Origin: an uncultured Candidatus Saccharibacteria bacterium
Lineage (GTDB): Bacteria > Patescibacteriota > Minisyncoccia > Phycocordibacterales > UBA9973
DNA: 64,000 nucleotides
NCBI GenBank assembly: GCA_964554645.1
Contig: CAZKPK010000003.1
Coordinates: forward strand, 4,256 to 68,255
Direction of reading: 5' to 3'
The position numbers were made by a program, and so were the translations under genes. Position 1 is the stretch's first letter; the number at the start of each line of letters is the position of its first letter. The notes under the pieces were generated by a model. It was given only the letters and a program-made list of their open reading frames with translations. It did no database searches and was not told the origin of the DNA. Shown piece after piece: positions 9,338 to 47,549 of this stretch.

Positions 9338-9367
9338 CCATAATAGCAACGGTCGTTGCTATTATGG
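9338..9367. repeat. family A intergenic palindrome CCATAATAGCAACGG-CCGTTGCTATTATGG type (copy 1)
   Basis: 14-bp perfect arms between convergent genes. Confidence 0.8.
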
Positions 9368-15082: not shown

Positions 15083-15106
15083 AATAGCAACGGCCGTTCC
15101 TATTAT
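15083..15106. repeat. family A palindrome (copy 2, AATAGCAACGGCCGTTCCTATTAT)
   Basis: Sequence match to the other copies. Confidence 0.7.
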
Positions 15107-32012: not shown

Positions 32013-33254
32013 TTAAATTACTGATCGTTTCCAATTATTTAATATAATTAAACCAATGATAACAAATATAGTCATAGCACCTACGGCGACACGATAAGCA
32101 ATGATTCGGGTGTCCATAGCCCAAATTATTCCTCCCCAAGTCAGTGGTCCAACTAAAGTTGCAAAACGTTCGGCTATTGTATAAAAAGAAAATCCATATC
32201 CCATATCCTTTTTTGGTAAGACAAGAGTCAAGTATGCGCGAGTAACCGTCCATACAGAACCCACAAGTAACCCAATAAGAGGTGTTAATATGGACACTGT
32301 GAGAAAATTGGGCGCCAGTGCTAGTAAAGGAAGGGCAACAATCCAACCCAACAAAATAAATTTTAAAGTCTTCAATGCGCCTATTTTGTCTCCCAACCAA
32401 CCAGCAATAATACTTCCAATGGCAGACATTATTAAAATTACAAGAAGTAAAATTGATTTAGCATTGTCTGGGGTCTGAAAAACCCTTTCTAGATAAATTG
32501 AATAGTTGTTGCTAACAGTCAATAATGCATCATTAAAAAAGAAGAAAGCAATTAGCATGGGAGTAGCGGCTGAAGCTGTAAAAAATATAATCATTTTTTT
32601 AATTGAAGTTCTTATTTCATTTTGAATTAAAGAAGATCTGATTTGTTCAACATATTTTTTTGATTCTTTAAAAAATATCATCATGGGAAGCGCAAGAATA
32701 AAGAAGACCGGTACAGATATCAGTAAAGGTGTAATACGAGAACCGGCAAATGGAAGTGTAATCAAAATACCCACCACAAAACCCAAAGAGCTTAAAAAAT
32801 TTCCGATTCCTGAAACTCGAGATTTATTGGTTTCATCTGTAATATCGTCTAACATTGGATTATAAAAAACAAAAGAAAGCTGATAAAAATATTGTCCAAT
32901 TAGAAAGAAAAGAGCGATCAATAAAATATTACTCTCCATCTTTGCCAAAATAGCAACTAGCCCATAGGACAGAAAAGTGCCAATTGTGGCAATATTTAGC
33001 CAATATTTTCTACCGCCACGTAAATCAGTTCGAGTTGCTAATATTGGAGCTGTAAACAAAAGAATAATCGTAGTTATTGCAAAAATCGCATTATACCAAA
33101 AGTCTGACAATCCACCATCGACTACAATCCAGACCGCAAAATAAAGGATGAAGTTTATATAAACAATAGAATTTGCAAAATCATAAAGTGACCAAAAGAA
33201 TAGTTGTTTTTTATTCATATACATAATTCTATCATAAAATAAATGCTGTATCAA
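32013..33254 (-). CDS. polytopic transporter, probably MFS
   Basis: About 12 TM helices, two-fold repeat. Confidence 0.5.
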   Translation of the reverse strand: MIQHLFYDRIMYMNKKQLFFWSLYDFANSIVYINFILYFAVWIVVDGGLSDFWYNAIFAITTIILLFTAPILATRTDLRGGRKYWLNIATIGTFLSYGLVAILAKMESNILLIALFFLIGQYFYQLSFVFYNPMLDDITDETNKSRVSGIGNFLSSLGFVVGILITLPFAGSRITPLLISVPVFFILALPMMIFFKESKKYVEQIRSSLIQNEIRTSIKKMIIFFTASAATPMLIAFFFFNDALLTVSNNYSIYLERVFQTPDNAKSILLLVILIMSAIGSIIAGWLGDKIGALKTLKFILLGWIVALPLLALAPNFLTVSILTPLIGLLVGSVWTVTRAYLTLVLPKKDMGYGFSFYTIAERFATLVGPLTWGGIIWAMDTRIIAYRVAVGAMTIFVIIGLIILNNWKRSVI

Positions 33255-33313
33255 AAAAACAAAATGTTTTCTAATGACACATTATGCGATAGCAAAATTT
33301 GTCGCTACTGTTA

Positions 33314-34282
33314 TTAGATTGCGTATTTTTTTAGATTATTTTTGATTCTTTTTTCAATATTTCCGGTTTCGGCTACAAAAGGGATTCCGGTAATTTGCTC
33401 ATATATTTGTATATATCGGCGGGATAATTCCGCAATCATTTCCGGCGGAGCCGGAGGCATCACTTTGTCTTTATATGGATCAGAATGTTCTTTGAACCAT
33501 AAACGTAGAAATTCTTTGTCAAAATTTTCCGGCTCTAAGCCTTTATTTATTCTATCTTGATACGAATTCGCTTGCCAATATCTGGAAGAATCGGGCGTAT
33601 GAATCTCGTCTATCAGCACCACCTCTCCATTTTTCGCGAGTCCAAATTCATATTTTGTATCCACTAAAATCAATCCTTTCTTTAAAGCGATTTCCTGTCC
33701 ACGGGCAAAAAGTTTCAAAGCTGCGCTGGAAACTTTTTGCCAAACTTCCGGCGTCATTATTTTTTCCTCTAAAATAATTTTACTAGTCAGTGGTCTGTCG
33801 TGGGCTTCAAATTTTGTGGTAGGTGTAAGGACTGGCTTGTTTAGTTTTTGATTTTTATGCATGCCGTCGGGCAGAGTAAAATCTCCAAAATTTCTTTCTC
33901 CTTTTTGATACAAGGTCCAAAGAGAAGTTCCGGTTACTCCAGTAATATAACCTCGCGCCACCATTTCTACGGGAATTACCGCGCATTTCTTACCCACTAC
34001 CACATTCGGATCGGGAAAATCTAGAGCATGATTTTTCACGATATCTTTGGTGTTTTCAAACCAAAACTTGCTGATTTGCGTCAGCACTTGCCCTTTGCCA
34101 GGTATTAATGCTAAATTGCGATCAAAAGCCGAGTATCGGTCTGTGGAAATCAGAATGATTTTATCACCTTGGCTATAAACATCTCTGACTTTGCCAGTAT
34201 ATTTTTCTCCTAGGTTCAAATTTTTTCCGCCCGAGGCGGATCCGCCTTTGGCGGAGAAATTTGTTTTTTCAAGTATATTCAT
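33314..34282 (-). CDS. purC: SAICAR synthetase; the called N-terminus likely over-extends into a family D repeat
   Basis: KVRDVYSQGDKIILISTDRYSAFD... SAICAR synthetase core. The true start is probably the TTG near 34206 (MNLGEKYTGKVRDVY); the upstream AKGGSASGGK is repeat-encoded. Confidence 0.85.
   Translation of the reverse strand: MNILEKTNFSAKGGSASGGKNLNLGEKYTGKVRDVYSQGDKIILISTDRYSAFDRNLALIPGKGQVLTQISKFWFENTKDIVKNHALDFPDPNVVVGKKCAVIPVEMVARGYITGVTGTSLWTLYQKGERNFGDFTLPDGMHKNQKLNKPVLTPTTKFEAHDRPLTSKIILEEKIMTPEVWQKVSSAALKLFARGQEIALKKGLILVDTKYEFGLAKNGEVVLIDEIHTPDSSRYWQANSYQDRINKGLEPENFDKEFLRLWFKEHSDPYKDKVMPPAPPEMIAELSRRYIQIYEQITGIPFVAETGNIEKRIKNNLKKYAI
34221..34258. repeat. family D GC-rich palindrome TTTTCCGCCCGAGGCGGATCCGCCTTTGGCGGAGAAA
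   Basis: Lies between purM and the purC core. Confidence 0.75.
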
Positions 34283-34313
34283 TTCATTTTATTAAAATTT
34301 TAATTAATAATAA

Positions 34314-35435
34314 TTATTTTCCCGGAGGTGTAAGAATTATTTTTTCCGGTTCAAAAATAACTTGCCGTTTGCCTTTTTCCACCATGCCAATATCCGCAAG
34401 CTCATATCCGATATTTTTACCTATTTTTAATATTTTAGCAATCTCTTCTTTCGGAGCAAAAATATAGTAACCCACTCCCCAGTTAAAAGTTTTTAAACAA
34501 TCCTGAATCGCGATGCCTATGTCTTTATGGAAATATTCCATTAAAAGAGGAATTTTTAACCAGGAATGAATTCTATAAGTGAATGGTCGTTTGTCAAAAG
34601 CGATTTTACCAAGGCCATCGCCTGTGCCGGGCAGAAGCGCATGAATTTTAATTTTTGCTTTCAGTAATGCTTCAACAAGCGCAACATATGAGCGGGTGGG
34701 AATAAGCGCTTCATCACCTAAAGTATTTCCATTGGAAAGTTTTGTTAAAAATTGCCGAGGCAGTTCTAGAGTCTTTTTTATCACTAAACTAATACCGTTC
34801 GCATGAAGACCCGATGATGCAATTCCGACAATATGATCACCAACAGTCAAATTTCGACCAGTAATCAAATTTTCTTTTGGCGCTACTATGCCAATGACCG
34901 AACCGCTCAAACTGGCTATTTCTCGGACTGGACTTTTTGGATTAATTAAATAAGTGACGCTGGCGGACTCTCCGGCTGGCAAGGCCATACCGACTTCTTT
35001 ACAAATTTTTAAAAATCCCCTAGCAAAATCCCCCGCTCTTTTTTTGTCTGCATACCATGCGCTTCCGCTTGCTTCTAATTGGTCGGTAAAAACTACCGGC
35101 AGAGCCCCTTGCGCGATAACATCATTTACCACAATTAATGCCGTATCGATGGCGATAGAATCGTGGTAAGATTTTCCAGTCTTTTGATACATCCATTCCG
35201 CGATCCAATTTTTATTTCCGAGGTCCTCTTGCGTCTGACACCAAATAGGAGTTCCCTTCCCCCGATATTCAAACACCGCTCCGTGCGCGTGTGTGGCATT
35301 CTCGTTGATGAATACTCCCCTTTTATTTGGGAATTTTAGTGTTTTTTTACCAGCTTTAATCATGGTCATTTTAAATGGTTCCATGACCGTATAATCTACC
35401 CCTGCTTTGGCGTATTCGCTTTTTTTATTACTCAT
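34314..35435 (-). CDS. purM: AIR synthetase (PurM family)
   Basis: AKAGVDYTVMEP N-terminus and PurM N/C domains; somewhat longer than typical. Confidence 0.75.
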   Translation of the reverse strand: MSNKKSEYAKAGVDYTVMEPFKMTMIKAGKKTLKFPNKRGVFINENATHAHGAVFEYRGKGTPIWCQTQEDLGNKNWIAEWMYQKTGKSYHDSIAIDTALIVVNDVIAQGALPVVFTDQLEASGSAWYADKKRAGDFARGFLKICKEVGMALPAGESASVTYLINPKSPVREIASLSGSVIGIVAPKENLITGRNLTVGDHIVGIASSGLHANGISLVIKKTLELPRQFLTKLSNGNTLGDEALIPTRSYVALVEALLKAKIKIHALLPGTGDGLGKIAFDKRPFTYRIHSWLKIPLLMEYFHKDIGIAIQDCLKTFNWGVGYYIFAPKEEIAKILKIGKNIGYELADIGMVEKGKRQVIFEPEKIILTPPGK

Positions 35436-35956
35436 TATTTATTCTGCAAATATTTTTTAAATCCAATTTTCAAAAGTTTCTCGCCTTTTATTTTTATTTC
35501 TTCGCTCATTTTTTGTTTATACGCAATCATTTTATTTTCTAAATTTTTATCGCTTGTCGCCAATATTTGCGCAGCTAAAAGTCCGGCGTTTTTTCCGGCG
35601 TTTATTCCAACAGTGGCGACTGGCACTCCGGGAGGCATTTGAACAGTAGAAAGCAGAGAATCAAGTCCATCCAAAGTTTTTGCCTTAACTGGAACACCAA
35701 TAACTGGCAGAGTTGTCAAGGATGCTATGACACCCGCTAAATGCGCCGCGCCTCCGGCGCCGGCAATGATAATTTTAATCCCTCGATTTTTTGCGTTGGT
35801 TGCATATTTATGCGTAATTTCCGGTGCGCGATGCGCCGAAGCGACCGTCATTTCATAAGGTATGTCAAATTCTTCAAGCACTTTTGCTGATTCAGACATT
35901 ATTTCTAAATCTGTATCTGAGCCCATAACTATGCCAACTTGAAGATTTTTTGTCAT
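35435..35956 (-). CDS. purE: N5-CAIR mutase / AIR carboxylase catalytic subunit
   Basis: VGIVMGSDTDLEIM...SAHRAPE...IIIAGAGGAAHLAG is canonical PurE. Confidence 0.9.
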   Translation of the reverse strand: MTKNLQVGIVMGSDTDLEIMSESAKVLEEFDIPYEMTVASAHRAPEITHKYATNAKNRGIKIIIAGAGGAAHLAGVIASLTTLPVIGVPVKAKTLDGLDSLLSTVQMPPGVPVATVGINAGKNAGLLAAQILATSDKNLENKMIAYKQKMSEEIKIKGEKLLKIGFKKYLQNK

Positions 35957-35980
35957 GGGTTTATCTTATCATTATTATGG

Positions 35981-36016
35981 AAAATAAAAAAGGGACCGAA
36001 GAATTTTCGTCGGTCC
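35981..36016 (-). terminator. hairpin GGACCGACG-loop-CTTCGGTCC followed by a T-run (minus strand)
   Basis: Lies between purH and purE. Confidence 0.55.
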
Positions 36017-36317
36017 TTGCTAGGTCGATAGTTTTTGTTCATCCGCCTAAAGAACAATCAATCTCACCTTCCGGAAAATGAAATGGCACCCCCTCCATGT
36101 CCATCAAAGGCGGTGCCTTCTTGTAAGGAGGTTTCGTAGATTCAATTTCGCATTCATGAATTTGAGCTGGCGGTGTTGGAAGTTGCTCGTTTTTTTCTTT
36201 TTGCATATTTTTGCGATTTTCTGACTCCTATTCAAAGAACAACCTAAAAAGTTCAAGGAACAAAAGCCAAGATTAAAATTAACAGAATATCTAAATAAAA
36301 TCAAGTAAATGTATTTT

Positions 36318-36338
36318 GCGTTAGGTCTTGCCTAACGC
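36318..36338. repeat. family B hairpin GCGTTAGGtcttgCCTAACGC (copy 1, just downstream of purH)
   Basis: Identical 21-mer at 44305-44325. Confidence 0.75.
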
Positions 36339-36345
36339 AAGGTTG

Positions 36346-37899
36346 TTAATGCTTAAAATGTCGAAAGCCGGTTGTGACCATGGCAATTTTATATTTATTC
36401 GCCATGTCTATTGATGCTTGGTCATTTTTTGATCCGCCGGGCTGGATAATCGCGCTGATGCCGTTCTTACCGGCCAGTTCTACACAATCCGGGAAAGGAA
36501 AAAATGCTTCAGAAGAAAGCGCCGCGCCTTTGAGGGAGAATTTGAATTTTTTTGCTTTGTCAATCGCTTGTTTCAAAGCGTCGATGCGCGATGTCTGTCC
36601 GCAACCCATAGAAATGAGCGCGCCATTTTTTACCAGAGCGACCGAATTTGATTTAAGATGTTTTGTCGCTACTGAGGCTATCAGCATATCTCCTACTTCT
36701 TTTTTTGTTGGCTTTCTTTTGGTAACTGTCGTGAGGTCAGATTCTTTTTCTATTTGCGTGTCGCGATCTTGTGTGAGAATTCCAGTAAAGCAAGTCCGGA
36801 TTTGTTTTTTAGGAAGAGCTGGGTTCTTCCATTTCAAAATTCGGCAATTTTTTTTCTCCTTGAATATTTCCAAAGCTTTTTCTGTAAAATCCGGAGCGAT
36901 AATTACTTCCACAAATAGATTTTGTTTTTTTACAAGCTTGGCAATATCTTCGCCAATAGTCCTATTAGTAGCAAGTATTCCGCCAAACGCCGAAAGCGGG
37001 TCAGCTTTGTAAGCAGATTTATAGGCTTCCAGAAGTTGACTTTCTTTTTTACACACAGCTAAACCGCAGGCATTCAGATGCTTGATGATAGCGAAAGCAG
37101 GCTCCTTAAAATCATAAACAATCATAATGGCTGATTCCGTGTCTATGAGATTATTGTAAGAAAGCTCTTTGCCGTGGAGTTGGACGAAATTTTCCCCTAG
37201 ATTGCCTATAAATTCCCCTTTCTGATGCGGATTTTCTCCGTAGCGTAGCGCGGTGTTACTGTCAAAGGGCACCTTTGACACACTTTGAAAATATCCGCGA
37301 ATGGCAGTGTCGTAAGCGCTAGTTATTTCAAAAGCGTTGCCGGCAAATTTTTTTCTTTCTTCTAATGTGGTTTCGTTACCATTTTTCAATATTGAGCAGA
37401 ACTCCTGATATTGGTGTTTTGAAGGAATGATAACCACATCGTTAAAATTTTTTGCTGCCGCGCGGATAAGCGCTACTCCGCCAATATCAATTTTTTCAAT
37501 GATTTCTTCCTTCGCCTCGCCGGAGCTTTGTGCGAAGGTAGGTTCTTTTGTATATTTTGCCAGCGTTTCTTCAAATGGATAAAGATCCACAATCACCAGA
37601 TCAATGTTTGCTATTTTATATTTAATTTTTTCTTTTTGATCTTCGCTATTATCCCGCCGATTTAAAATACCGCCAAAAATCTGCGGTTGAAGCGTTTTTA
37701 CTCTCCCGCCGAAAATTGCGGGGAAATTAGTGACAGTCTCCACTTCGGTTACAGGAATTTTCAGTTTGCGGATAAATTCCGCCGTGCCGCCGGTAGAAAT
37801 AATTTTTACGTTATGTTTAGCCAGAAGCCTGACAATTTCATCAAGTCCCTCTTTATTAAAAACCGAAATAAGCGCGCTAGAAATTTTCTTCGAATTCAT
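36346..37899 (-). CDS. purH: AICAR transformylase / IMP cyclohydrolase
   Basis: ALISVFNKEGLDEIVRLLAKHNVKIISTGGTA MGS domain plus AICARFT region. Confidence 0.9.
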   Translation of the reverse strand: MNSKKISSALISVFNKEGLDEIVRLLAKHNVKIISTGGTAEFIRKLKIPVTEVETVTNFPAIFGGRVKTLQPQIFGGILNRRDNSEDQKEKIKYKIANIDLVIVDLYPFEETLAKYTKEPTFAQSSGEAKEEIIEKIDIGGVALIRAAAKNFNDVVIIPSKHQYQEFCSILKNGNETTLEERKKFAGNAFEITSAYDTAIRGYFQSVSKVPFDSNTALRYGENPHQKGEFIGNLGENFVQLHGKELSYNNLIDTESAIMIVYDFKEPAFAIIKHLNACGLAVCKKESQLLEAYKSAYKADPLSAFGGILATNRTIGEDIAKLVKKQNLFVEVIIAPDFTEKALEIFKEKKNCRILKWKNPALPKKQIRTCFTGILTQDRDTQIEKESDLTTVTKRKPTKKEVGDMLIASVATKHLKSNSVALVKNGALISMGCGQTSRIDALKQAIDKAKKFKFSLKGAALSSEAFFPFPDCVELAGKNGISAIIQPGGSKNDQASIDMANKYKIAMVTTGFRHFKH

Positions 37900-37956
37900 T
37901 ATGCTGAAATACTACCATAATTAAATTTTTACTCAAATTAAAAAAAATAATACTAG

Positions 37957-37989
37957 CATAATGGCAACAGCCGTTGCCATTAGTGAAAA
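37957..37989. repeat. family A palindrome (copy 4, TAATGGCAACagccGTTGCCATTA)
   Basis: 10-bp perfect arms. Confidence 0.7.
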
Positions 37990-38041
37990 AAGCCAGTGCA
38001 TTCCTCCTTGTGGGAGGGGTTAGACTGGCTCTTCCTGCGAG

Positions 38042-38647
38042 TTAATTAGTAACTCGCAACTTTGGCTGAACATTCGGCACCACCTTGCTGGGTGTGGGCT
38101 GAGAGAAACTTACTGGTGACCGCACTAGCAAGGTGTGGAGACACCAGTCTGCCAGCGGTAGCACCACATTGAAGTTCCGGTGCATGTATCGGTGATGAAG
38201 CAGGTGATGCCCGTTGAGCCGGAAAAAGATTCCGATACGTTCCACTCTCCGGCTAGGAGATTTGGGTAGATGCATACACCAATGCAGATACTCATACATT
38301 GAATAGTATGCAATACCAGCGGTGATTGAACCCAAAAGGAGCCACCAATTGCTTACTAAAAGGCAGGTGACTAAAAAGGGATATTGACAAACCATGATTA
38401 AAACAGGTCCGTTCCACCAGGCCATGGGGATTTTTTGCTTGTCCTGTTTATTTTCATCGATGAGATGGTAATTTCTTTCTGAACCATATTCACGATGATG
38501 TATCTTCGCGTGCGCCTCAAAGGCGTATGTGAAAGTGAAACCGAAAATTTTGACTGGCTTATGCATCACATAGCGATGCAATGTCCATTCAAAAAATGAG
38601 TCGACAAACATGCCGACAATGAAACCAACTAGAAGGAACAAAATCAT
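38042..38647 (-). CDS. fatty-acid hydroxylase / sterol-desaturase superfamily membrane protein (GC-rich, likely acquired)
   Basis: Histidine boxes HRYVMH, HAKIHH, HHLLHH; visibly higher GC than flanking DNA; flanked by diverged direct repeats. Confidence 0.6.
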   Translation of the reverse strand: MILFLLVGFIVGMFVDSFFEWTLHRYVMHKPVKIFGFTFTYAFEAHAKIHHREYGSERNYHLIDENKQDKQKIPMAWWNGPVLIMVCQYPFLVTCLLVSNWWLLLGSITAGIAYYSMYEYLHWCMHLPKSPSRRVERIGIFFRLNGHHLLHHRYMHRNFNVVLPLADWCLHTLLVRSPVSFSQPTPSKVVPNVQPKLRVTN

Positions 38648-38743
38648 AATTTTTTTTATATTGTTGAGGTTTTGGTTATTCTTTTTTTAAATAACCATTT
38701 GTTCATTGTATTATAGCACATCAAAAAATTTTTGTGCTACTCA

Positions 38744-38895
38744 AACTTTATTAAAAACCGAAATAAGCGCGGAGTTAATCTTTTTCTTCATGATGAAGAA
38801 ATATTAACACAATTTTGTTTTTACTCAAACAAAAAAGCCAGTACTTGATTTTCCTCCTTTCGGGGTGCACTGGACTTTTCGAAAGTTAATCAGGA
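38744..38895. repeat. diverged duplicate of the purH 5' end and upstream region (compare 37851-38050)
   Basis: 26-bp identical run CTTTATTAAAAACCGAAATAAGCGCG, then about 65-70% identity including a remnant MKKKINSALISVF reading frame. Confidence 0.7.
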
Positions 38896-38918
38896 TTTCA
38901 GCCTGGCTCAAAAAACGA

Positions 38919-39167
38919 TTACCAAAACACATTGCCGTTCCCATCAACGATTTCTCGAACCTCTCTGCCTTCTAATATAGAAACAGAACCATCCGACACT
39001 ATCTTGATTTTTTTTCGGTCGAACAGCTTTGGTGTTTGGATGGCAAATCCGTTTTCCACTATTTTCTTGTTTCCATTCATCATTTTGACTACAAACGGAG
39101 CTTTTACTACCCAACATGACGCAGTGTTTATGCAAGGAAGCATGTCAAAAGTTTTTTCATTTTTCAC
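38919..39167 (-). CDS. hypothetical small protein
   Basis: 82-aa ORF, no motif. Confidence 0.2.
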   Translation of the reverse strand: MKNEKTFDMLPCINTASCWVVKAPFVVKMMNGNKKIVENGFAIQTPKLFDRKKIKIVSDGSVSILEGREVREIVDGNGNVFW

Positions 39168-39200
39168 AATTTGTGCCTTTCTCTAAATAGTATACACCCT

Positions 39201-40811
39201 TTATTCAAATTCGGTCGTGGCTGGGGGTTTGGGAGTCATATCAAAAAATACGCGGACGATGTTTTTGTGTTTGGTGAGAGCGCTGGTGATTTCATTCACC
39301 ACTTCTTCGGGAAAATAATAGCCCTTGGCGGTCATAAAATCAGATGTTTGCACGGCACGCACAACCAGAGAATGGCCATAGACTCTTTCGTCCCCTTTCA
39401 CTCCGACGGAATTAATGCCCAGAAGCGCGACGATAAGTTGGGAAATATTTTTGGTGAGATTATATTTTTTTAGAATATCGGTTACGGTTTTGTCCGCTTG
39501 GCGCACTAGTTCAATATTCTCTTTTGAGACTGGCGCGCCGACTACTCGCAGGTATAGACCCGGACCGGGAAAAGGATGGCGTTCATATACAGCGGGCGGA
39601 AGATTAAGCGCGCGGGCAAGTTCGCGGATTTCATATTTGAATAAATTTCTGAATGGATGCAAATCATTCACTTTCCACGAAAGTCCCACATTGTGGTGCG
39701 TTTTTATCATTGTTGATTCCCCTGCTTTGCCACTTTCAATGATGTCGGTCGCCAAGGTCCCCTGCGCAATAAAGCCGGCATTATATTTTATTATTTCTTT
39801 TTCGAATATTTTTTGATACACAGCGCGAAACTTCGCGCGTTTTTTTTCTCCGTCGATTGTCGCGCTGATATTTTTTATAAACTCCTTTCCGGCTCTAATC
39901 ACAACAAGTTTTTTTATTCCCGCATTTCTTGTATTTTCTTTCAATTCTTCAATCTCATTCGCTCGCAATCCACCAGTGTCTATCGCCACGCCAATCAGCC
40001 TTTTTCTCAAAACTGGAGCCAGAATAGCAGCCAGAGTGGTTGAATCCACTCCGCCCGAAACGCCCAAAATCATATTTTGTTTTTTTACCTCACCCTTTCT
40101 TCCTCTCCTATCAGGAGAGGGCTGGGGAGAGGTTACTATTGCCAAAACCTCTTTCTGAATCTGGTGAATCAAATTTCTTGGATCCCAATCTTTTCTACAA
40201 TCAGCAATGTTCAAGAAATTCTGTAGCATTTTTTTGCCCTCTCTTGTATTAACAACTTCGGGATGAAATTGGATTCCCATTACCCTATTACTCATATCAG
40301 CCATGGCTGATATGCTGCCGGATGCGCCAATTGAAATAAAGTTTTTTGGAAGTTTAGTGACAGTATCTCCATGACTTGCCCAGACTTCTGTTTTTTTCTG
40401 CACTCCACCAAAGAGAGGATGTGTAGTATCTAGTGTAACTTCAGCTGGTCCATACTCACGGTGTTCGTGCGGTTTACTCACCAGACCCCCAAGCTTATGC
40501 GCCAGAAGTTGCATACCGTAACAAATACCCAAGATGAAATATTTTTTACCGGAAACATCAAGCGAGTTTGGAAATTCCGGAGCCTCATGGCTATGAACAC
40601 TCCAATTACTGCCGGAAAGAATAACCGCTTTGGGAGTGTTATTTTTTAGCCACCGGTCTGCTTTTTTTAGCGGTAATATTATACTTCGCACGCCAAGCTC
40701 GCGCAGAGTTCTTCCGATAACTAGCGTGTATTGCGATCCGTAATCCACGATCAAGATTTGTATGTTATCCATAATAGAAAATTTATTTATAAAAATCTTT
40801 ACGGTGTCCAA
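39201..40811 (-). CDS. guaA: GMP synthase (glutamine-hydrolysing)
   Basis: Class I GATase (GICYGMQ...H) plus PP-loop SGGVDS and GMP synthase C-terminal domain. Confidence 0.9.
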   Translation of the reverse strand: MDTVKIFINKFSIMDNIQILIVDYGSQYTLVIGRTLRELGVRSIILPLKKADRWLKNNTPKAVILSGSNWSVHSHEAPEFPNSLDVSGKKYFILGICYGMQLLAHKLGGLVSKPHEHREYGPAEVTLDTTHPLFGGVQKKTEVWASHGDTVTKLPKNFISIGASGSISAMADMSNRVMGIQFHPEVVNTREGKKMLQNFLNIADCRKDWDPRNLIHQIQKEVLAIVTSPQPSPDRRGRKGEVKKQNMILGVSGGVDSTTLAAILAPVLRKRLIGVAIDTGGLRANEIEELKENTRNAGIKKLVVIRAGKEFIKNISATIDGEKKRAKFRAVYQKIFEKEIIKYNAGFIAQGTLATDIIESGKAGESTMIKTHHNVGLSWKVNDLHPFRNLFKYEIRELARALNLPPAVYERHPFPGPGLYLRVVGAPVSKENIELVRQADKTVTDILKKYNLTKNISQLIVALLGINSVGVKGDERVYGHSLVVRAVQTSDFMTAKGYYFPEEVVNEITSALTKHKNIVRVFFDMTPKPPATTEFE

Positions 40812-41034
40812 ATTTTAGAAAATAGGCATTGCCTTTTTTAATGTCAAAAGAGGCTCTGTAGTCTCCTATCCTCATACGATAATCTCCATACTCAAAATAT
40901 TCCAGCCTTTTAGCAAAATTTAGCGGATTATTATTTTCAAAAATAAAATCCAGTTTATTAAGAATTCTTTTTTGAATTAATTTTGGAAGTAAGGCTAAAG
41001 TTTTTATTCCCTCTTCAGTAACAAAATAACGCAT
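40783..41034 (-). CDS. RelE/ParE-family toxin
   Basis: 83 aa with ...YRMRIGDYRASFDI...FGHRKDFY, characteristic of RelE/ParE. Confidence 0.55.
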   Translation of the reverse strand: MRYFVTEEGIKTLALLPKLIQKRILNKLDFIFENNNPLNFAKRLEYFEYGDYRMRIGDYRASFDIKKGNAYFLKFGHRKDFYK

Positions 41035-41037
41035 AGA

Positions 41038-41262
41038 TTAAATTAAACCTAGTTTCTTGTATACTTGTTGACCAGTGTAAAACTTTTTAGAACTTCTAGC
41101 TCGAGCAATACTTTTTCTGTAATTTACAGAAGCGTACATCTCCAAGTCTTCTTGCATTTCCTCAAATCTAGCTCGCATTTTTTCCCAAGTGTTTGTTGGT
41201 ATTACAACAACAGGCTTACGATTAAGCGTCCCAATATTTATTTTTTTCAATAAAATGTTCAT
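41038..41262 (-). CDS. putative antitoxin
   Basis: 74-aa ORF immediately upstream of the toxin with a 3-nt gap. Confidence 0.4.
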   Translation of the reverse strand: MNILLKKINIGTLNRKPVVVIPTNTWEKMRARFEEMQEDLEMYASVNYRKSIARARSSKKFYTGQQVYKKLGLI

Positions 41263-41387
41263 ATTTTAAGAATACAGCATTTTCTAAAAAGTTGCAACAA
41301 GTTTCTTTAGCAAGAACGTACTTTTTTGTAACTACCAAAAAGGTATTTACGAGAAATCTATTTATATGCTATCATACACAATATATT

Positions 41388-42878
41388 ATGTCTTCGAAAG
41401 CAAGAGAAAAAAAAGAAGAAAAATTCACAGAGGGTCTTACTTATGATGATGTTTTGCTTATACCGCAATATTCAGAAGTTTTGCCTCGGGAAGTTGATAT
41501 TTCTTCTTTTCTCACCAGAAAAATAAAACTCAATGTTCCGATTGTTTCGGCTGCGATGGACACGGTGACTGAAGCGGCTTTGGCGATCGCCATGGCGCAG
41601 GAAGGAGGAATAGGGATTCTGCACAAAAATATGAGCATTGAGAAGCAAGCGGCTGAAGTGCGCAAGGTTAAGCGCTCCGAAAGCGGAATGATTCATGATC
41701 CGATAACTCTCAAAGAAGACGCGTTGCTAAAAGAAGCGCTGCGACTTATGAAGGAAAATAAAATTGGCGGAATACCGATCGTTGACAAAAATATGCGACT
41801 CAAAGGTATTTTAACTAATCGCGATTTAAGATTTCAGAAAAATTTAGAACTTCCAGTCGGCGAGATAATGACCAAAACAAATTTAATCACTGGCAGTCTT
41901 GGGACAGATTTGCGGGAAGCGGAAAAAATACTCACAAAATATAAAGTTGAAAAATTGCCTTTGGTGGATAAACAAAATAAACTTATTGGTCTGATCACTT
42001 ACAAAGACATAATGAAAGTAAAGTCTCGACCAAATTCTTGCCGAGATTATTTCGGTCGTTTGCGAGTAGGCGCCGCGGTAGGAATAATGGCTGATACATT
42101 AGAGAGAGTAAAAGCGCTTGAACAAAACGGAGTCGATGTGATAGTTATTGATACGGCTCACGGCCATTCAAGAGGAGTGATTGAAATGTTGAAGAAAATA
42201 AAAAAAGAATTTCCAAAATTAGAAGTTATCGTCGGAAACATTGCTACCGGAGAAGCGGCTAAAGATTTAGTTAAAGCCGGAGCGGACGCGATAAAGGTGG
42301 GCATCGGACCGGGGTCAATTTGCATCACCCGCGTAATTGCCGGCGTAGGTTTTCCGCAGTTTTCCGCCGTTTATGAAGTGGCGCGAACGATTAAAGATTC
42401 AGGCGTACCAATTATCGCGGATGGAGGAATTCGGCATACCGGAGATATTCCAAAAGCTATCGCGGCCGGGGCCAGTTCGATTATGACAGGTTCTCTTTTT
42501 GCTGGAGTGGAAGAATCTCCGGGCGAGACAATAATTTTAGAAAGCAGAAAATATAAAACTTATCGCGGCATGGGCTCGGTTGAAGCCATGAAGCAAGGTT
42601 CCAAGGACAGGTATTTCCAAGATGCAGAGGATGACATTAAAAAACTTGTGCCGGAAGGGATCGTAGGCCGAGTCTCTTTCAAAGGCGGGCTTTCGGAAGT
42701 AATTTATCAACTAGTGGGAGGTCTCCGATCCGGCATGGGATATTGCGGGGCAAAAGATATCAAGACTTTACAAAAAAAAGCAAAATTTATCAGAATCACG
42801 CAATCCGGCATAGAGGAGAACCACCCGCATGATGTTATAATTACCAAAGAAGCTTCCAATTATAGCGTGGGAGAATAA
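41388..42878 (+). CDS. guaB: IMP dehydrogenase
   Basis: [11 protein letters not shown] start, tandem CBS pair, [11 protein letters not shown] catalytic loop; start set at ATG 41388. Confidence 0.9.
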
Positions 42879-42929
42879 GATAAAATGACCCATTCGACAA
42901 ACTCAGGGTCATGGTGATAAAATAGAACC

Positions 42930-44249
42930 ATGAAAAATGGATTTATTGATGTGGTTGTCGGCTTGCAATGGGGGGATGAAGGAAAAGGCAAAAACATAGA
43001 TGAACTTCTTTCGCATAAAGTTTATTCCGCAGTGGCGCGTTTTCAGGGTGGAGCGAATGCCGGGCACACTATTAAATTAGGAAATGCGACCTTTGTTGGA
43101 CATATTGTGCCCTCCGGTTGTTTCCAAAGAAATATAGAATTATATATTGGCAATGGTGTGGTGGTTGATGCTGTGTCTTTGATTAAAGAAATAGAACAGC
43201 TTAAAAATTTAGGTTTTGATGTTACCAAACGTCTTTATATTTCAAATCGGGCGAAATTAGTTTCATATTTGCATCCTTTCTTAGATCAAGCGGACGAATA
43301 TCATGGGAGCAATTTAGGAACAAAAATAGGCTCGACTTCCAGAGGTATAGGTCCGGCTTATAGCGATGCGCGAGCGCGCAGAGGGCTCTTGCTCGGCGAT
43401 CTTTTATTGCCTGATTTCAAACAAAAAGAATCCGCTCTTTCAAAATTTCATCTGAATTTTTTGAAAATGTATGAAGAAAAATATGGTTTTAAAGTTGATC
43501 TGGAAAAAATAAAAGAAGCGAAAGAAAAATGGCTACAGGCCCTAAAAGAGGTGAAGAAACTAAAAATTTGCGATTTATCATTTTTAATCCAAAAAAGATT
43601 GAGAGAAGGGAAAAATATTTTAGCTGAAGGCGCGCAGGGCGCAATGCTCGATATTGATTTTGGAGATTATCCGAATGTGACTAGTTCCAATACTCTGCCG
43701 GTAAATGTTTGTCTGGGTCTGGGTGTGCCTCATATTTATTTACGAGATATTTATGGTGTGATAAAAGCTTATACCACGAAAGTGGGTGGCGGAAACTTCC
43801 CAGCCAGAATTAAAGACGAAGCGCTAGAGAAATTTTTTCAAAAGGCGGGCAATGAATTCGGAGCTACCACCGGACGGCCCAGAATGTGCGGCTGGCTTGA
43901 TTTATTTGCGCTTCGTTATGCAATTACCCTCTCGGGCGCTAATAAAATTTTTATCAATAAGGCCGATATTTGCTTGAGCGACAAAGTAAAAGTTGTAACC
44001 GGGTATAAAAATAATAAAAAGATTTTTAAAGAATTTCCGCTTTATTTAAATCAAGTAACAAGTGTCGTTACCGAAGAAATACCAGGCTGGGGCAATACTA
44101 ATTTTAGAGTTAAAGATAAGAAAAAAGTTTCCAAAGAGCTTAAATCGTATTTAGACTATATCAAAAAGAAACTTTCCGATCTGGATGTGAAAATCATCTC
44201 CGTCGGCACCGGCCAAGACCGCGAGGATTTTTTTAATTGGGATAAATAA
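42930..44249 (+). CDS. purA: adenylosuccinate synthetase
   Basis: VVVGLQWGDEGKGK and GANAGHT motifs. Confidence 0.9.
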   Translation: MKNGFIDVVVGLQWGDEGKGKNIDELLSHKVYSAVARFQGGANAGHTIKLGNATFVGHIVPSGCFQRNIELYIGNGVVVDAVSLIKEIEQLKNLGFDVTKRLYISNRAKLVSYLHPFLDQADEYHGSNLGTKIGSTSRGIGPAYSDARARRGLLLGDLLLPDFKQKESALSKFHLNFLKMYEEKYGFKVDLEKIKEAKEKWLQALKEVKKLKICDLSFLIQKRLREGKNILAEGAQGAMLDIDFGDYPNVTSSNTLPVNVCLGLGVPHIYLRDIYGVIKAYTTKVGGGNFPARIKDEALEKFFQKAGNEFGATTGRPRMCGWLDLFALRYAITLSGANKIFINKADICLSDKVKVVTGYKNNKKIFKEFPLYLNQVTSVVTEEIPGWGNTNFRVKDKKKVSKELKSYLDYIKKKLSDLDVKIISVGTGQDREDFFNWDK

Positions 44250-44266
44250 ATTTAAATTTAGTAATG

Positions 44267-44296
44267 CCATAATAACAACGGCCGTTGCTATTATGG
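44267..44296. repeat. family A palindrome (copy 5, CCATAATAACAACGGCCGTTGCTATTATGG)
   Basis: Lies between convergent purA and purD. Confidence 0.8.
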
Positions 44297-44304
44297 TATC
44301 TTCT

Positions 44305-44325
44305 GCGTTAGGTCTTGCCTAACGC
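44305..44325. repeat. family B hairpin (copy 2); encodes the last five codons and stop of purD
   Basis: Reverse strand reads GCG TTA GGC AAG ACC TAA = ALGKT*. Confidence 0.75.
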
Positions 44326-45594
44326 GCTTTTGCCTATATCTCTCCTATATTGCATCCCTTTAAAAGAAATTTTATCTATAGCTTTATAGGTCTTATCGAG
44401 CGTTTCTTGTAAAGTATTTCCGACAGCCGAAACTCCAAGCACTCGCCCGCCATTAGTTACTAGTTTGCCTTTTTCCATTTTTGTGCCGGCGTGAAAGATC
44501 ACGATATCACCACCCCCTCCCCCCTCCTCAATGAAGATGGGGTTCCCCTTCTCATAATTTCCCGGATAGCCACCAGAAGCAAGTGCAATGTTGCATGCAA
44601 AAGTATCCTTTTTCCATTTTATTTCTAAATTATTCAATTTCCCATCAATACTCGCATCTATAATATCTAGCAAATCAGTATCTAATAATCTCATATATGT
44701 TTGCGTTTCTGGATCGCCAAAGCGCGCATTGAATTCAAAAACCTTCGGGCCGTTTTTGGTCAGCATTATTCCCGGATATAATATGCCGACAAATGGTCTG
44801 CCTTCTTTGGTCATACCCGCCAATGTCGGCGCGACGATTTCTTTTTCAATACGGGCTAGGAGTATATTATTTACAAAAGGAAGCGGAGCGATCACTCCCA
44901 TTCCGCCGGTATTGGGTCCCGCATTGCCGTCGAATATGCGTTTATGATCTTGCGAGCTAGGAAATATTTTAAAGTTTTTACCATCGGAAATTGCGTGAGT
45001 GGAAATTTCTACGCCCTCTAAGTATTCTTCGATGACCACTTCATTTCCGCCTACTCCAAAAATCTTATCTATAAAAATTTTTTGGAGTGCTTCGATTGCT
45101 TTTTCTTTTGTTTGCGCGACGGTTACCCCTTTGCCGAGCGCGAGCCCGCTTGCTTTTATTACCACTGGCACTTGTCCCTTTTCCACATAAATTTTTGCTT
45201 TTTCAAAATCGTTAAAAACCGCGTATTTTGCTGTGGGAATATTATGTCTTTTCATAAAATCCTTGGCATAGGCCTTAGACCATTCTAGTTCGCTTGCTCC
45301 CTTGCTCGGTCCCCAAACTCTTAATCCAACTTTTTGAAATTCATCCACCATACCCACAGATAAGGGATTATCAGAAACTACGAGCGTGAGGTCAATTTTT
45401 TCTTTTCTTGTGAATTCTAAAAGTTTCAAAATTTCTGTTTCTTTAATATCTAAATTAGTTCCCAGCTTCGCCGTACCGGCATTACCTCGGGCAAAAAATA
45501 ATTCTCCGACTCTTTCCGACTGCGCTATTTTCCAGCCCAAAGCATGCTCCCGTCCCCCTCCCGCTCCGATTATTAAAATTTTTTGTTTTTGCAT
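44308..45594 (-). CDS. purD: phosphoribosylamine-glycine ligase
   Basis: MQKQKILIIGAGGREHA N-terminus and ATP-grasp domain; start trimmed to MQKQK. Confidence 0.85.
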   Translation of the reverse strand: MQKQKILIIGAGGGREHALGWKIAQSERVGELFFARGNAGTAKLGTNLDIKETEILKLLEFTRKEKIDLTLVVSDNPLSVGMVDEFQKVGLRVWGPSKGASELEWSKAYAKDFMKRHNIPTAKYAVFNDFEKAKIYVEKGQVPVVIKASGLALGKGVTVAQTKEKAIEALQKIFIDKIFGVGGNEVVIEEYLEGVEISTHAISDGKNFKIFPSSQDHKRIFDGNAGPNTGGMGVIAPLPFVNNILLARIEKEIVAPTLAGMTKEGRPFVGILYPGIMLTKNGPKVFEFNARFGDPETQTYMRLLDTDLLDIIDASIDGKLNNLEIKWKKDTFACNIALASGGYPGNYEKGNPIFIEEGGGGGDIVIFHAGTKMEKGKLVTNGGRVLGVSAVGNTLQETLDKTYKAIDKISFKGMQYRRDIGKSALGKT

Positions 45595-45602
45595 AAAAAT
45601 TG

Positions 45603-46166
45603 TTAAACACTCGGTGTTGAACATAATTTTTCTAAAATTTCCACATACATTTTATTCTCTTTCTTTTTTAGTCTAGCATACAAAGATTCGATAGTATCAT
45701 CGGCCTCAACTTTTTCAAAAGTTCTTCCCAAGACTGGCCCGAAATCAAAATTCAAAGTCAGAAAATGAACAGAAGAACCCGCGTAAGTAGATTTTTGGTC
45801 CAAGAAATTCTGGATAGCTTTATTGCCGTACATTCCTTTATTCCATAAAGCTTTAGTGCCATCTGGATTTTCCACAGTTCCATCAATCGTGTTTGGAATG
45901 AGTCCCGGATGTAAATTCAAGATTTTATTTTGATATTTTTTAATCATTTCATCAGGGATAATTTTCTTCCAACCGCTGAGGCACATGTAATCTGGCGATA
46001 TTTTGTCTATTATCGGTTTAGGATTCTCTTTATCAGAAACCACCGCAGAAATTTCAGCATTAATTTTACCTTTATCAATTGCATCTCTAATTGCTCTGAG
46101 GTTGGTTTGAGTACCCCCTTCATGAACTAAAAGCACTAATTTTAATTTAATCTTTTGGAACATCAT
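45603..46166 (-). CDS. purN: phosphoribosylglycinamide formyltransferase
   Basis: NLHPGLIP motif and formyl-transferase fold length. Confidence 0.75.
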   Translation of the reverse strand: MMFQKIKLKLVLLVHEGGTQTNLRAIRDAIDKGKINAEISAVVSDKENPKPIIDKISPDYMCLSGWKKIIPDEMIKKYQNKILNLHPGLIPNTIDGTVENPDGTKALWNKGMYGNKAIQNFLDQKSTYAGSSVHFLTLNFDFGPVLGRTFEKVEADDTIESLYARLKKKENKMYVEILEKLCSTPSV

Positions 46167-47547: not shown

Positions 47548-47549
47548 AA

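What the first reader, a model, noticed from the sequence alone, without database searches (positions are those of the whole stretch)
37851..38895. GC-rich hydroxylase gene inserted upstream of purH, bracketed by diverged direct copies of the purH 5' region
About 180 bp containing the purH start (reverse strand MNSKKISSALISVF) and its upstream sequence recurs at 38744-38895. The second copy begins with a 26-bp identical run and continues at roughly 65-70% identity, including a ghost MKKKINSALISVF frame. Between the copies lies a single fatty-acid-hydroxylase-family gene that is visibly more GC-rich than its surroundings. The flanking direct repeat of a gene end is the footprint expected from Campbell-type single-crossover integration of a circular molecule carrying a homologous fragment, or from site-specific integration at an att site overlapping the purH 5' end. 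The divergence suggests an old event.
Basis: seen in the sequence. Interest (0 to 1): 0.6.

Follow-up and report, generated by a model that had tools for sequence, protein, structure and literature searches.

The report
Acquired hydroxylase gene flanked by purH-start duplication
A foreign-looking membrane hydroxylase gene has been spliced into the purine operon of an uncultured Candidatus Nomurabacteria bacterium, leaving a short dead copy of the start of the next gene as a scar; it is a clear but ordinary example of gene gain by homology-anchored recombination.

Summary
A 26-nt exact run (37851-37876 = 38746-38771) sits inside a 150-190 nt diverged direct repeat. The repeat brackets a 201-aa His-box (fatty-acid-hydroxylase superfamily) gene that has the most atypical GC3 and codon usage of 47 ORFs in the window.

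Relatives show the ancestral state: guaA is followed directly by purH (4-29 nt apart) in five lineages. The window lineage therefore gained about 1.3 kb there (orf82 plus the hydroxylase).

Each repeat copy is a terminator, then a relic of guaA's last codons (TTTGAGTAA), the native 29-nt spacer and purH codons 1-15. A third guaA-end relic (TTTGAGTAG) abuts the ghost's codon 15. The 895-bp unit therefore looks like a circularly permuted guaA-end/hydroxylase/purH-start segment taken from a genome that carried the hydroxylase in the same slot.

The ghost resembles the nearest relative's live purH start (86%) more than it resembles its own partner (79%), and it still looks selected (dN 0.03, dS 0.46). 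The divergence therefore more likely reflects donor-recipient difference than age.

No integrase, att-type element or riboswitch was found. Three other lineages carry different cargo at this junction; two of them also have duplicated flanks. Verdict: a homology-anchored (Campbell-type or HFIR-like) insertion, which is a known kind of event.

The parts
39201..40811 (-). guaA (GMP synthase). It ends ...GAATTTGAATAA at 39201-39212.
   Evidence: Pfam GATase and GMP_synt_C; 85% amino-acid identity to guaA of L090; end sequence read.
38919..39167 (-). orf82, a small accessory ORF occupying the first 'slot' after guaA. Its 5' flank (extended -10-like GGTGTATAC) and 3' flank are homologous to the flanks of an unrelated 78-aa ORF in L097.
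   Evidence: A few homologues of 77-88 aa at 38-52% identity; no Pfam or NCBIfam family; flank homology to L097 (window 39260-39188 = L097 4478-4550 at 86%; window 38905-38883 = L097 4877-4900 at 96%).
38831..38906 (-). Copy B, upstream part: conserved 5' flank (CAGGCTGAAATCCTGATTAACTT) and terminator-like hairpin B ending ACTGGCTTTTTT. The hairpin is weak.
   Evidence: fold -19.5 kcal/mol, z = -1.2.
38792..38829 (-). Copy B junction: relic of guaA's last codons and stop (TTTGAGTAA, 38821-38829) plus the native 29-nt guaA-purH spacer. It reads as a promoter-like -35 TTGAGT / 16 nt / -10 TAATAT, 9 nt before the ATG.
   Evidence: Matches the live guaA-stop/spacer/purH-start of L131 and L090. Promoter function is inferred; the site falls below the tool's threshold.
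38741..38791 (-). Ghost purH start: ATG plus 15 purH codons, then V and stop (MKKKINSALISVFNKV*). Contains the 26-nt exact run at 38746-38771.
   Evidence: MKKKINSALISVFNK begins about a dozen of the 120 purH relatives listed (for example P0126-P0128) and close variants begin many more.
38737..38745 (-). Third guaA-end relic (TTTGAGTAG), directly abutting ghost codon 15. This is the illegitimate junction (purH codon 15 joined to the last 9 nt of guaA) and the left end of the 895-bp unit.
   Evidence: 16/20 match to copy B's junction (family D5). L129's guaA ends GAGTTTGAGTAG, the same 11-mer.
38648..38736 (-). 5' flank of the hydroxylase: extended -10-like TGCTATAAT (38710-38718) and two small hairpins, with no terminator. 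The last ~44 nt are shared with the closest homologue's locus, L008.
38042..38647 (-). 201-aa His-box protein of the fatty-acid hydroxylase / sterol desaturase superfamily, compositionally atypical. Its last 5 codons and stop are supplied by the flanking hairpin.
38037..38057 (-). 8-bp hairpin with CUAAU loop (GCGAGTTA-CTAAT-TAACTCGC). The hydroxylase stop codon lies in the loop. L115 has GAGGATTA-CTAAT-TAATCCTC at the same place, with 3 compensatory pair changes.
37986..38036 (-). Copy A terminator: strong hairpin followed by a U-run, homologous to terminator B.
   Evidence: fold of hairpin plus terminator -38.7 kcal/mol, z = -5.2.
37938..37985 (-). Segment present only in copy A, containing a member of a genome-wide palindrome family (ATGGCAACGGCTGTTGCCAT, 37961-37980), inserted in the terminator's T-run.
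37900..37937 (-). Copy A junction: guaA-end relic TTTGAGTAA (37929-37937) plus the 29-nt spacer; promoter-like -35 TTGAGT / 16 nt / -10 TAGTAT.
36346..37899 (-). Live purH (MNSKKISSALISVFNK...). Codons 7-15 form the 26-nt exact run at 37851-37876. The body is closest to L090 along its whole length.
   Evidence: Pfam AICARFT_IMPCHas and MGS; sliding-window identity.

Best explanation
The window comes from a Candidatus Nomurabacteria (CPR) genome. Its purine gene cluster ancestrally had guaA followed directly by purH. In this lineage the guaA|purH junction has become a slot for accessory genes.

The hydroxylase arrived as an 895-bp unit. The unit starts with the last 9 nt of a guaA gene (TTTGAGTAG). 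It continues through a promoter-like element, the hydroxylase, a small hairpin, a strong terminator, a second guaA-end relic with the 29-nt spacer, and purH codons 1-15. That is the circular permutation of a guaA-end / hydroxylase / purH-start segment from a genome that already carried the hydroxylase in the same slot.

The unit joined the resident chromosome by two exchanges:
- One homologous exchange inside the shared terminator/junction/purH-start segment. The 26-nt run is the only stretch of perfect identity longer than about 12 nt.
- One illegitimate joint, between purH codon 15 and the guaA end.

This is equivalent to Campbell-type single-crossover integration of a small circle, or to homology-facilitated illegitimate recombination of a linear fragment.

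The resident purH start was left behind as a 16-codon ghost (copy B). The live purH received the incoming terminator, junction and first ~6 codons (copy A).

Functional consequences (inferred, not shown): the hydroxylase can be transcribed from its own extended -10 element and from the resident junction. It is insulated from purH by terminator A. purH keeps a full junction copy in front of it.

The enzyme is predicted to be an O2-dependent membrane di-iron lipid hydroxylase/desaturase. Its substrate is unknown.

Shown: the insertion, the repeat, the junction anatomy and the compositional atypicality. Inferred: the order of events, which copy is the newcomer, and promoter function.
For: - Ancestral adjacency of guaA and purH (4-29 nt) in L010, L122, L129/L130, L131 and the P0133 contig.
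- Both copies align to the live guaA-stop/spacer/purH-start of relatives. For example, L131 has GAATTTGAGTAA + 29 nt + ATG.
- TTTGAGTAG lies exactly at the end of the ghost. The motif with up to 1 mismatch occurs 48 times in 128,000 strand positions (about 4e-4 per position).
- The hydroxylase's left flank carries GTGCTATAATAC, like the slot promoter GTGTATAATAC of L097 and GTGTATAC of orf82.
- Junction-segment identities are B-L090 86%, B-L115 85%, A-B 79% (70% without the run) and A-L090 78%.
- There are 12 A-unique against 5 B-unique changes, and only 1 shared derived site.
- Over its 15 codons the ghost has dN 0.028 and dS 0.46 against L090. Neighbouring live genes have dS 0.5-0.8.
- The purH body is L090-like immediately after the run.
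- The hydroxylase has GC3 0.505 and the most atypical codon usage of 47 ORFs.
- The nearest homologue (78%) is on a Nomurabacteria-like contig in a different context. The next are 57-65% identical, and the named ones are Verrucomicrobiota.
- Single crossover of a circular molecule is experimentally known to leave 109-950 bp duplications of the homologous locus (PMC3240628).
Against: - No donor genome with a single guaA-hydroxylase-purH slot was found. No hydroxylase homologue above 78% exists outside this strain.
- The A-unique versus B-unique excess is not significant (binomial p = 0.14).
- The segments are short (85-190 nt), so their phylogeny is weak.
- Terminators A and B share an inner CCCC...GGAGG stem that L097 and L115 lack. 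This fits a sister relationship and hence an in-situ duplication.
- The 26-nt identity is also what conservation alone would give. L090 and L115 each differ from it at only 1 position, so it does not by itself mark a crossover.
- Promoter calls are below the scan threshold.
Confidence: 0.6

Rival explanations
1. In-situ duplication. A tandem duplication within this genome copied the terminator/junction/purH-start (or the whole 895-bp slot). The two copies then diverged over a long time, and the hydroxylase's arrival is a separate event.
For: - The illegitimate joint (purH codon 15 | guaA end) is also what a head-to-tail tandem duplication would give.
- Terminators A and B share an inner CCCC/GGAGG stem absent from L097 and L115.
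- No donor was found.
Against: - A neutral ghost should have decayed more than the live copy. The reverse is seen: 5 B-unique against 12 A-unique changes.
- The ghost keeps an intact ATG and frame and shows dN/dS of about 0.06 against L090. At the neutral rate about 8-10 non-synonymous changes would be expected if it dated from the split (my estimate from the dS values).
- A and B share only 1 derived site relative to four other species.
- B is closer to L090, L115 and L097 than to A.
Confidence: 0.22
2. Site-specific integration. A small integrative element with an attP mimicking the purH 5' end (or the guaA end TTTGAGTAA) integrated through a recombinase that has since been lost or is encoded elsewhere.
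For: - TTTGAGTA(A/G) recurs at every block boundary: 39201, 38821, 38737 and 37929.
- Four lineages carry different cargo at the same junction.
- There is a 26-nt identical core.
Against: - TTTGAGTAA is simply guaA's last codons and stop, inherited with the junction.
- There is no recombinase in the unit or among the genes called within 10 kb on either side.
- Breakpoints differ between lineages: a 60-73 nt guaA 3' ghost in L097 and a 45-nt palindrome/-35 duplication in L090.
- The hairpins do not fit the integron attC core sites RYYYAAC/GTTRRRY (read by eye).
Confidence: 0.08
3. Artefact or chance: a chimeric MAG assembly, or similarity no better than expected for AT-rich intergenic DNA.
For: The source is a metagenome-assembled genome, and the region is AT-rich.
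Against: - Seven independent assemblies are 100% identical across the region.
- Alignment scores lie far outside the shuffled and real low-GC controls.
- The 26-nt run is not expected by chance.
Confidence: 0.01

Closest known systems
Campbell-type single-crossover integration of a circular molecule carrying a short homologous fragment (for example, the lacZ duplications of 109-950 bp described in PMC3240628)
   Same: The insert is bracketed by direct repeats of the homologous target segment (about 150-190 bp). The downstream gene is reconstituted and a truncated copy is left upstream.
   Different: - The repeats here are 21-30% diverged, so the exchange was homeologous.
- The presumed circle is only 895 bp, with no replicon or selectable element.
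- The circle itself is inferred, not observed.
Homology-facilitated illegitimate recombination during natural transformation (Acinetobacter, S. pneumoniae, P. stutzeri), as used to explain orphan immunity-gene arrays in Vibrio cholerae T6SS clusters (PMC5361080)
   Same: - One homologous anchor plus one illegitimate joint.
- New cargo displaces older material, which is kept alongside.
- Repeated events at one locus build arrays with relic gene ends.
   Different: - Classical HFIR usually deletes recipient DNA rather than duplicating it.
- Competence of this organism is not shown.
- Microhomology at the joint is at most about 2 nt, and only if the donor's guaA ended like L129's.
Flexible genomic islets, or replacement hotspots between conserved core genes
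   Same: Different cargo sits between the same two core genes with conserved flanks in different lineages: hydroxylase, orf82, a 153-aa ORF, a HEPN/nucleotidyltransferase-like gene and a sugar transferase.
   Different: The scale is very small (single genes). The site lies inside a biosynthetic operon of a reduced CPR genome. Two slot alleles stand in tandem.
Fatty acid hydroxylase / sterol desaturase superfamily (Pfam PF04116)
   Same: The size, the conserved His boxes (HxxxxH, HxxxHH, HxxxH, HHxxHH), and homologues that pass the Pfam threshold.
   Different: - The window protein itself does not reach the Pfam threshold.
- No solved structure is detectable by sequence.
- The substrate is unknown.
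- The C-terminal tail is truncated and replaced by flank-encoded residues.

Membership tests
Fatty acid hydroxylase superfamily (PF04116) | Conserved histidine boxes (HX3-4H, HX2-3HH, HX2-3HH) that bind the di-iron centre | tested here: met
   The His-box histidines H24, H29, H46, H50, H51, H122, H126, H147, H148, H151 and H152, plus H61, are each conserved in at least 59 of 60 homologues.
Fatty acid hydroxylase superfamily (PF04116) | Match to the Pfam HMM at or above the gathering score | tested here: not met
   The window protein gives no hit at E <= 0.01. Homologues P0002 (78% identity, 31.6 bits) and P0004 (35.6 bits) pass the 31-bit cut-off, and 23 of 30 aligned homologues match. Membership is therefore transitive.
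Fatty acid hydroxylase superfamily (PF04116) | Hydroxylase/desaturase activity on a lipid substrate | not testable with these tools
   No solved relative by sequence. No conserved neighbourhood in two Verrucomicrobia-type contigs.
Campbell-type (single-crossover) integration footprint | Insert bracketed by direct repeats of a segment homologous to the target | tested here: met
   Copies A and B. Both are homologous to the live guaA|purH junction of relatives.
Campbell-type (single-crossover) integration footprint | Relatives with an empty site | tested here: met
   guaA and purH are adjacent in five lineages.
Campbell-type (single-crossover) integration footprint | A circular donor molecule, or a donor genome with the same cargo and flanks | tested here: not met
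   No hydroxylase homologue above 78% outside this strain. The 78% homologue sits next to an M23 peptidase, not in the slot.
Homology-facilitated illegitimate recombination | One illegitimate joint, usually at 3-10 nt of microhomology | tested here: inconclusive
   The joint AATAAAG|TTTGAGTAG is identified. Microhomology is 0-2 nt, depending on the unknown donor sequence (compared with L129).
Site-specific integrative element (att site at a gene end) | Integrase/recombinase gene in or next to the element | tested here: not met
   The only credible ORF in the unit is the hydroxylase. There are no recombinase Pfam families among the genes called within 10 kb on either side.
Integron gene cassette | attC site with RYYYAAC/GTTRRRY cores and an intI/attI platform | tested here: not met
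   The hairpin sequences do not fit the core consensus by inspection. No integrase is present.
ZTP or other purine-pathway riboswitch upstream of purH | Match to an Rfam covariance model | tested here: not met
   No relevant Rfam hit in 37700-39300 at E <= 5, and none at gathering score in the whole window.
Intrinsic terminator | GC-rich hairpin followed by a U-run | tested here: met
   Terminator A: -38.7 kcal/mol, z = -5.2, followed by UUUUUU. Terminator B is weak (z = -1.2). Neither was picked up by the simple scan, whose loop limit is 8 nt.

The most novel reading that the evidence does not exclude
The guaA|purH junction of Nomurabacteria may be a dedicated cassette slot, with guaA stop, extended -10 promoter, variable ORF, CUAAU-loop hairpin, terminator and purH. 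In this reading it is serviced by an unrecognised, integrase-independent or trans-encoded site-specific mechanism that targets the guaA-end motif TTTGAGTAA and generates long flank duplications. It would be an integron-like gene-capture system in ultra-small CPR genomes.
Probability: 0.06. Interest if true: 0.7.

Novelty: new member of a known kind. Interest (0 to 1): 0.35.

Why it matters
CPR/Patescibacteria have tiny genomes and are thought to depend on hosts for lipids and, often, nucleotides. How they gain genes is poorly documented.

- **A resolved gene-gain event.** This locus gives a base-pair-resolved example of gene gain inside a core operon. The scar points to homology-anchored recombination with DNA from a diverged relative, not to a mobile element. 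That fits the idea that these organisms acquire DNA by uptake and recombination.
- **A hotspot.** Four lineages carry different cargo at this junction. Three of them, including this one, also have duplicated flank fragments there.
- **The cargo.** A probably O2-dependent membrane di-iron hydroxylase is an unusual function for a Nomurabacteria genome. It could modify scavenged lipids.

None of this changes current concepts. It is a well-documented case, not a new mechanism.

Tried and rejected
- **Riboswitch or leader upstream of purH.** Rfam gave nothing relevant.
- **Mosaic purH.** A sliding-window comparison with six relatives showed L090 closest along the whole gene, so no imported tract extends beyond about codon 15.
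- **A donor with hydroxylase next to purH.** The protein search found only this strain (100%) and one 78% homologue in another context. Look-ups of purH relatives with A-like N-termini (P0135, P0131, P0133) all showed empty sites.
- **Exact-pattern scan of metagenome contigs with the purH codon 10-15 sequence.** It gave 37 loci. Only about 11 were purH loci (6 from close relatives), and none had a second copy.
- **Conserved neighbourhood of the hydroxylase in Verrucomicrobia-type contigs.** None was found.
- **Solved-structure relatives by profile.** None was found.
- **Flank duplications around the toxin-antitoxin insertion (guaB|guaA) and in the purH|purE gap.** None was convincing.
- **Segment phylogeny of terminator, promoter and N-terminus.** The signals conflict and the segments are too short to be decisive.
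- **The simple promoter/terminator scan.** It did not flag the elements I describe, so promoter function remains an inference.
Full report
**Source and layout.** The 201-aa protein is encoded, with identical surroundings, on GCA_016186455.1 contig JACPLP010000015.1 and on six Logan assemblies of related samples. NCBI names the source organism Candidatus Nomurabacteria bacterium. The 4.6 kb around the locus is 100% identical in the four contigs that span it, and the whole overlap is identical in the three shorter ones, so the arrangement is not an assembly artefact.

All relevant genes are on the minus strand:
- guaA, 39201-40811
- orf82, 38919-39167
- repeat copy B, about 38746-38906
- the 201-aa gene, 38042-38647
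- repeat copy A, 37851-38057
- purH, 36346-37899

- The 26-nt run CGCGCTTATTTCGGTTTTTAATAAAG occurs exactly twice in 64 kb, and none is expected by chance.
- It is flanked by ungapped blocks at 83% (41 nt) and 78% (50 nt) identity, 892-895 nt apart.
- With gaps the copies are about 66-72% identical. There is a 3-nt indel in the coding part and a 42-nt segment found only in copy A.
- Without the exact run the local alignment still scores 46. The maximum was 33 in 2000 shuffles and 35 against 1144 real low-GC segments of the window.
- The ghost reads MKKKINSALISVFNKV*.

**The gene between the copies.**
- Its GC3 is 0.505, the highest of 47 ORFs of at least 150 aa (mean 0.345, sd 0.057).
- Its synonymous codon usage is the least typical of the 47 (z = -2.6).
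- It gives no Pfam hit of its own, but 23 of 30 aligned homologues match PF04116.
- The histidines of all the His boxes (12 positions) are conserved in at least 59 of 60 homologues. It is therefore an intact member of the fatty-acid hydroxylase / sterol desaturase superfamily by transitive homology.
- No solved structure is detectable by sequence.
- The nearest homologue (78% identity) lies next to an M23 peptidase on a 3.3-kb, 39% GC contig. The only taxon-named close relative of that peptidase is from Candidatus Nomurabacteria.
- The next homologues are 57-65% identical, and the named ones are Verrucomicrobiota. Two such contigs have 50-63% GC.
- The conserved part of the protein ends at ...VPNVQPK. 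Homologues then carry variable tails, whereas here the last five codons and the stop are supplied by a flanking hairpin. This places the right edge of the hydroxylase-specific DNA near 38058.

**Relatives show an insertion.** The pur cluster is syntenic in related CPR genomes (purD, purA, guaB, guaA, purH, purE, purM, purC, purB).
- guaA is followed directly by purH in L010 (18 nt), L122 (4 nt), L129/L130 (26 nt), L131 (29 nt) and the P0133 contig (26 nt).
- L102 and L107 have 108 nt between the two genes.
- L091 (purH 81% identical) has a 95-nt gap upstream of purH and a divergent, oppositely oriented guaA.
- The nearest relative, L090 (purH 86% amino-acid identity), has a different 153-aa ORF there. 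That ORF is bracketed by a 45-nt direct repeat.
- L097 has a 1.5-kb insertion containing a 285-aa protein. I read this protein by eye as a nucleotidyltransferase/HEPN fusion; no family search was run on it. The insertion also has a 60-73 nt ghost of the guaA 3' end (19 residues, 100% identical) and a 78-aa ORF.
- L115 has about 1.3 kb with a small ORF and a 191-aa ORF. I read the 191-aa ORF as a sugar transferase; again no family search was run.
- The junction is therefore a recurrent insertion point. Duplicated flank fragments recur there in three lineages, including this one.

**What the repeat is made of.** The live junction of L131 reads ...GAATTTGAGTAA + 29 nt + ATG, that is, guaA's last codons (EFE, stop), the spacer and the purH start. 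Both window copies align to this over 85-88 nt. The 'TTTGAGTAA' in each copy (37929-37937 and 38821-38829) is therefore a relic of the guaA end. Upstream of it each copy has a homologous hairpin ending ACTGGCTTTTTT. Hairpin A is strong (-38.7 kcal/mol, z = -5.2) and hairpin B is weak. L097 and L115 have homologous terminators in front of the same junction.

A third relic, TTTGAGTAG (38737-38745), directly abuts ghost codon 15. The motif with up to 1 mismatch occurs at about 4e-4 per strand position, so this placement is unlikely to be chance. L129's guaA ends GAGTTTGAGTAG, the same 11-mer.

Downstream of this relic comes GTGCTATAATAC. This resembles the GTGTATAATAC that follows the guaA ghost in L097 and the GTGTATAC after the real guaA stop in the window. 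The 895-bp unit therefore has the content of a complete slot: guaA end, promoter-like element, ORF, hairpin, terminator, junction and purH start. It is joined head-to-tail at purH codon 15 | guaA end.

**Age versus origin.**
- Junction-segment identities:

| Pair | Identity |
|---|---|
| B - L090 | 86% |
| B - L115 | 85% |
| B - L097 | 82% |
| A - B | 79% (70% without the run) |
| A - L090 | 78% |

- Where at least three of four other species agree, A has 12 unique states, B has 5, and A and B share 1 derived state. The binomial p is 0.14, so this is suggestive only.
- Window versus L090 dS is 0.50-0.78 for guaB, guaA and purH.
- Over its 15 codons the ghost has dN 0.028 and dS 0.46 against L090.
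- If the ghost had been neutral since the split, I estimate that about 8-10 non-synonymous changes would be expected. One is seen.
- The ghost therefore behaved as a selected purH start until relatively recently. It is the copy that matches the nearest relative.
- The live copy A is the outlier. Its TCT-AGC serine codons and extra codon resemble the L129 type.
- The purH body is L090-like from just after the run onward.
- The 26-nt run is itself strongly conserved between species, with 1 mismatch to L090 and to L115. It is therefore both the expected island of identity between diverged alleles and the most plausible site of exchange. It is not proof of a crossover.

**Mechanism.**
- The simplest account needs one illegitimate joint and one homologous exchange between two diverged slot alleles.
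- Three routes could give this:
  - Campbell-type integration of a small circle.
  - Homology-facilitated illegitimate recombination of a linear fragment.
  - Tandem duplication of the slot followed by allelic replacement of one copy.
- These routes give the same product, and I cannot separate them.
- Single crossover of circular molecules is known experimentally to produce 109-950 bp duplications of the homologous locus (PMC3240628).
- HFIR has been invoked for arrays of displaced genes with relic gene ends in Vibrio cholerae (PMC5361080).
- No recombinase is present in the unit or among the genes called within 10 kb on either side. Breakpoints also differ between lineages. I therefore rate site-specific integration as unlikely.
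- No riboswitch is present.

**Expression (inferred).**
- Each junction reads TTGAGT / 16 nt / TAATAT (B) or TAGTAT (A), with the ATG 9 nt after the -10 hexamer.
- The hydroxylase has TGCTATAAT at 38710-38718.
- There is no terminator between the ghost and the hydroxylase.
- These elements fall below the simple scan's threshold and need experimental support.

**Verdict.** This is a real, well-resolved gene-gain scar in a CPR genome. The insertion and the homology-anchored mechanism are supported. The att-site idea and the 'old event' reading are not. It is a new example of a known kind of event and of moderate interest.

Noticed in passing
window 59743-59853 (-): Rfam LOOT RNA (RF03000) match at 74.7 bits against a gathering score of 46.4 (E = 3e-12), covering the full-length model.
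   Followed up: no
window 9343-9362, 15084-15103, 37961-37980, 44272-44291 (weaker: 46661-46680): A family of near-perfect palindromes, (cc)ataATAGCAACGGCCGTTGCTATtat(gg). Five matches were found against 0.26 expected. Four are intergenic and lie downstream of genes. The copy at 37961 lies in the 42-nt segment present only in repeat copy A, inside the terminator's T-run. It could be a REP-like element or a protein-binding site.
   Followed up: partly
window 38037-38057 (-) and L115 (as oriented) about 7363-7383: An 8-bp hairpin with an identical CUAAU loop just upstream of the terminator in two lineages. Three stem pairs are changed on both sides: GCGAGTTA/TAACTCGC against GAGGATTA/TAATCCTC. 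This suggests a conserved structured element of unknown role.
   Followed up: partly
window 40783-41262 (-): A pair of small ORFs (83 aa with a weak ParE_toxin match, E = 7e-4, below the cut-off; and 74 aa) sits between guaB and guaA. Relatives have only about 26 nt there. No flanking duplication was found.
   Followed up: partly
window 32013-33224 (-) and 36039-36206 (-): Further lineage-specific insertions in the pur cluster. An MFS transporter lies between purC and purB and is absent in L090, L129 and L131. The purH|purE gap is variable: a 55-aa ORF here, 51 aa in L090 and 234 aa in L131.
   Followed up: no
window about 33300-48350 (whole pur/gua cluster): A CPR genome carries an apparently complete de novo purine pathway cluster. 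Outside its CPR relatives, its purH is closest to Bacteroidota (51-55% identity) among 185,579 species representatives. Whether the cluster itself was once acquired was not examined.
   Followed up: no
L097 3571-4537: A related Nomurabacteria-like contig has a 285-aa ORF inserted after guaA on the opposite strand. By eye it looks like a nucleotidyltransferase/HEPN fusion; no family search was run. It is followed by a 60-nt ghost of the guaA 3' end that encodes 19 residues identical to the query guaA C-terminus.
   Followed up: partly
L090 4667-4710 and 5433-5480: The nearest relative has a 153-aa ORF of unknown function in the same slot. It is bracketed by a direct repeat of a different palindrome (TAYYATCTYGAACATATGT..AAGATARTA) plus the guaA-end motif TTTGAATAA. 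L097 carries the same palindrome once.
   Followed up: partly
window 38919-39167 (-): orf82 has only a handful of homologues among 1.8 billion representative proteins (77-88 aa, 38-52% identity). It also matches repeated units inside much larger proteins, for example 7 stretches in a 1268-aa protein. It is probably a real small domain protein of unknown function.
   Followed up: partly
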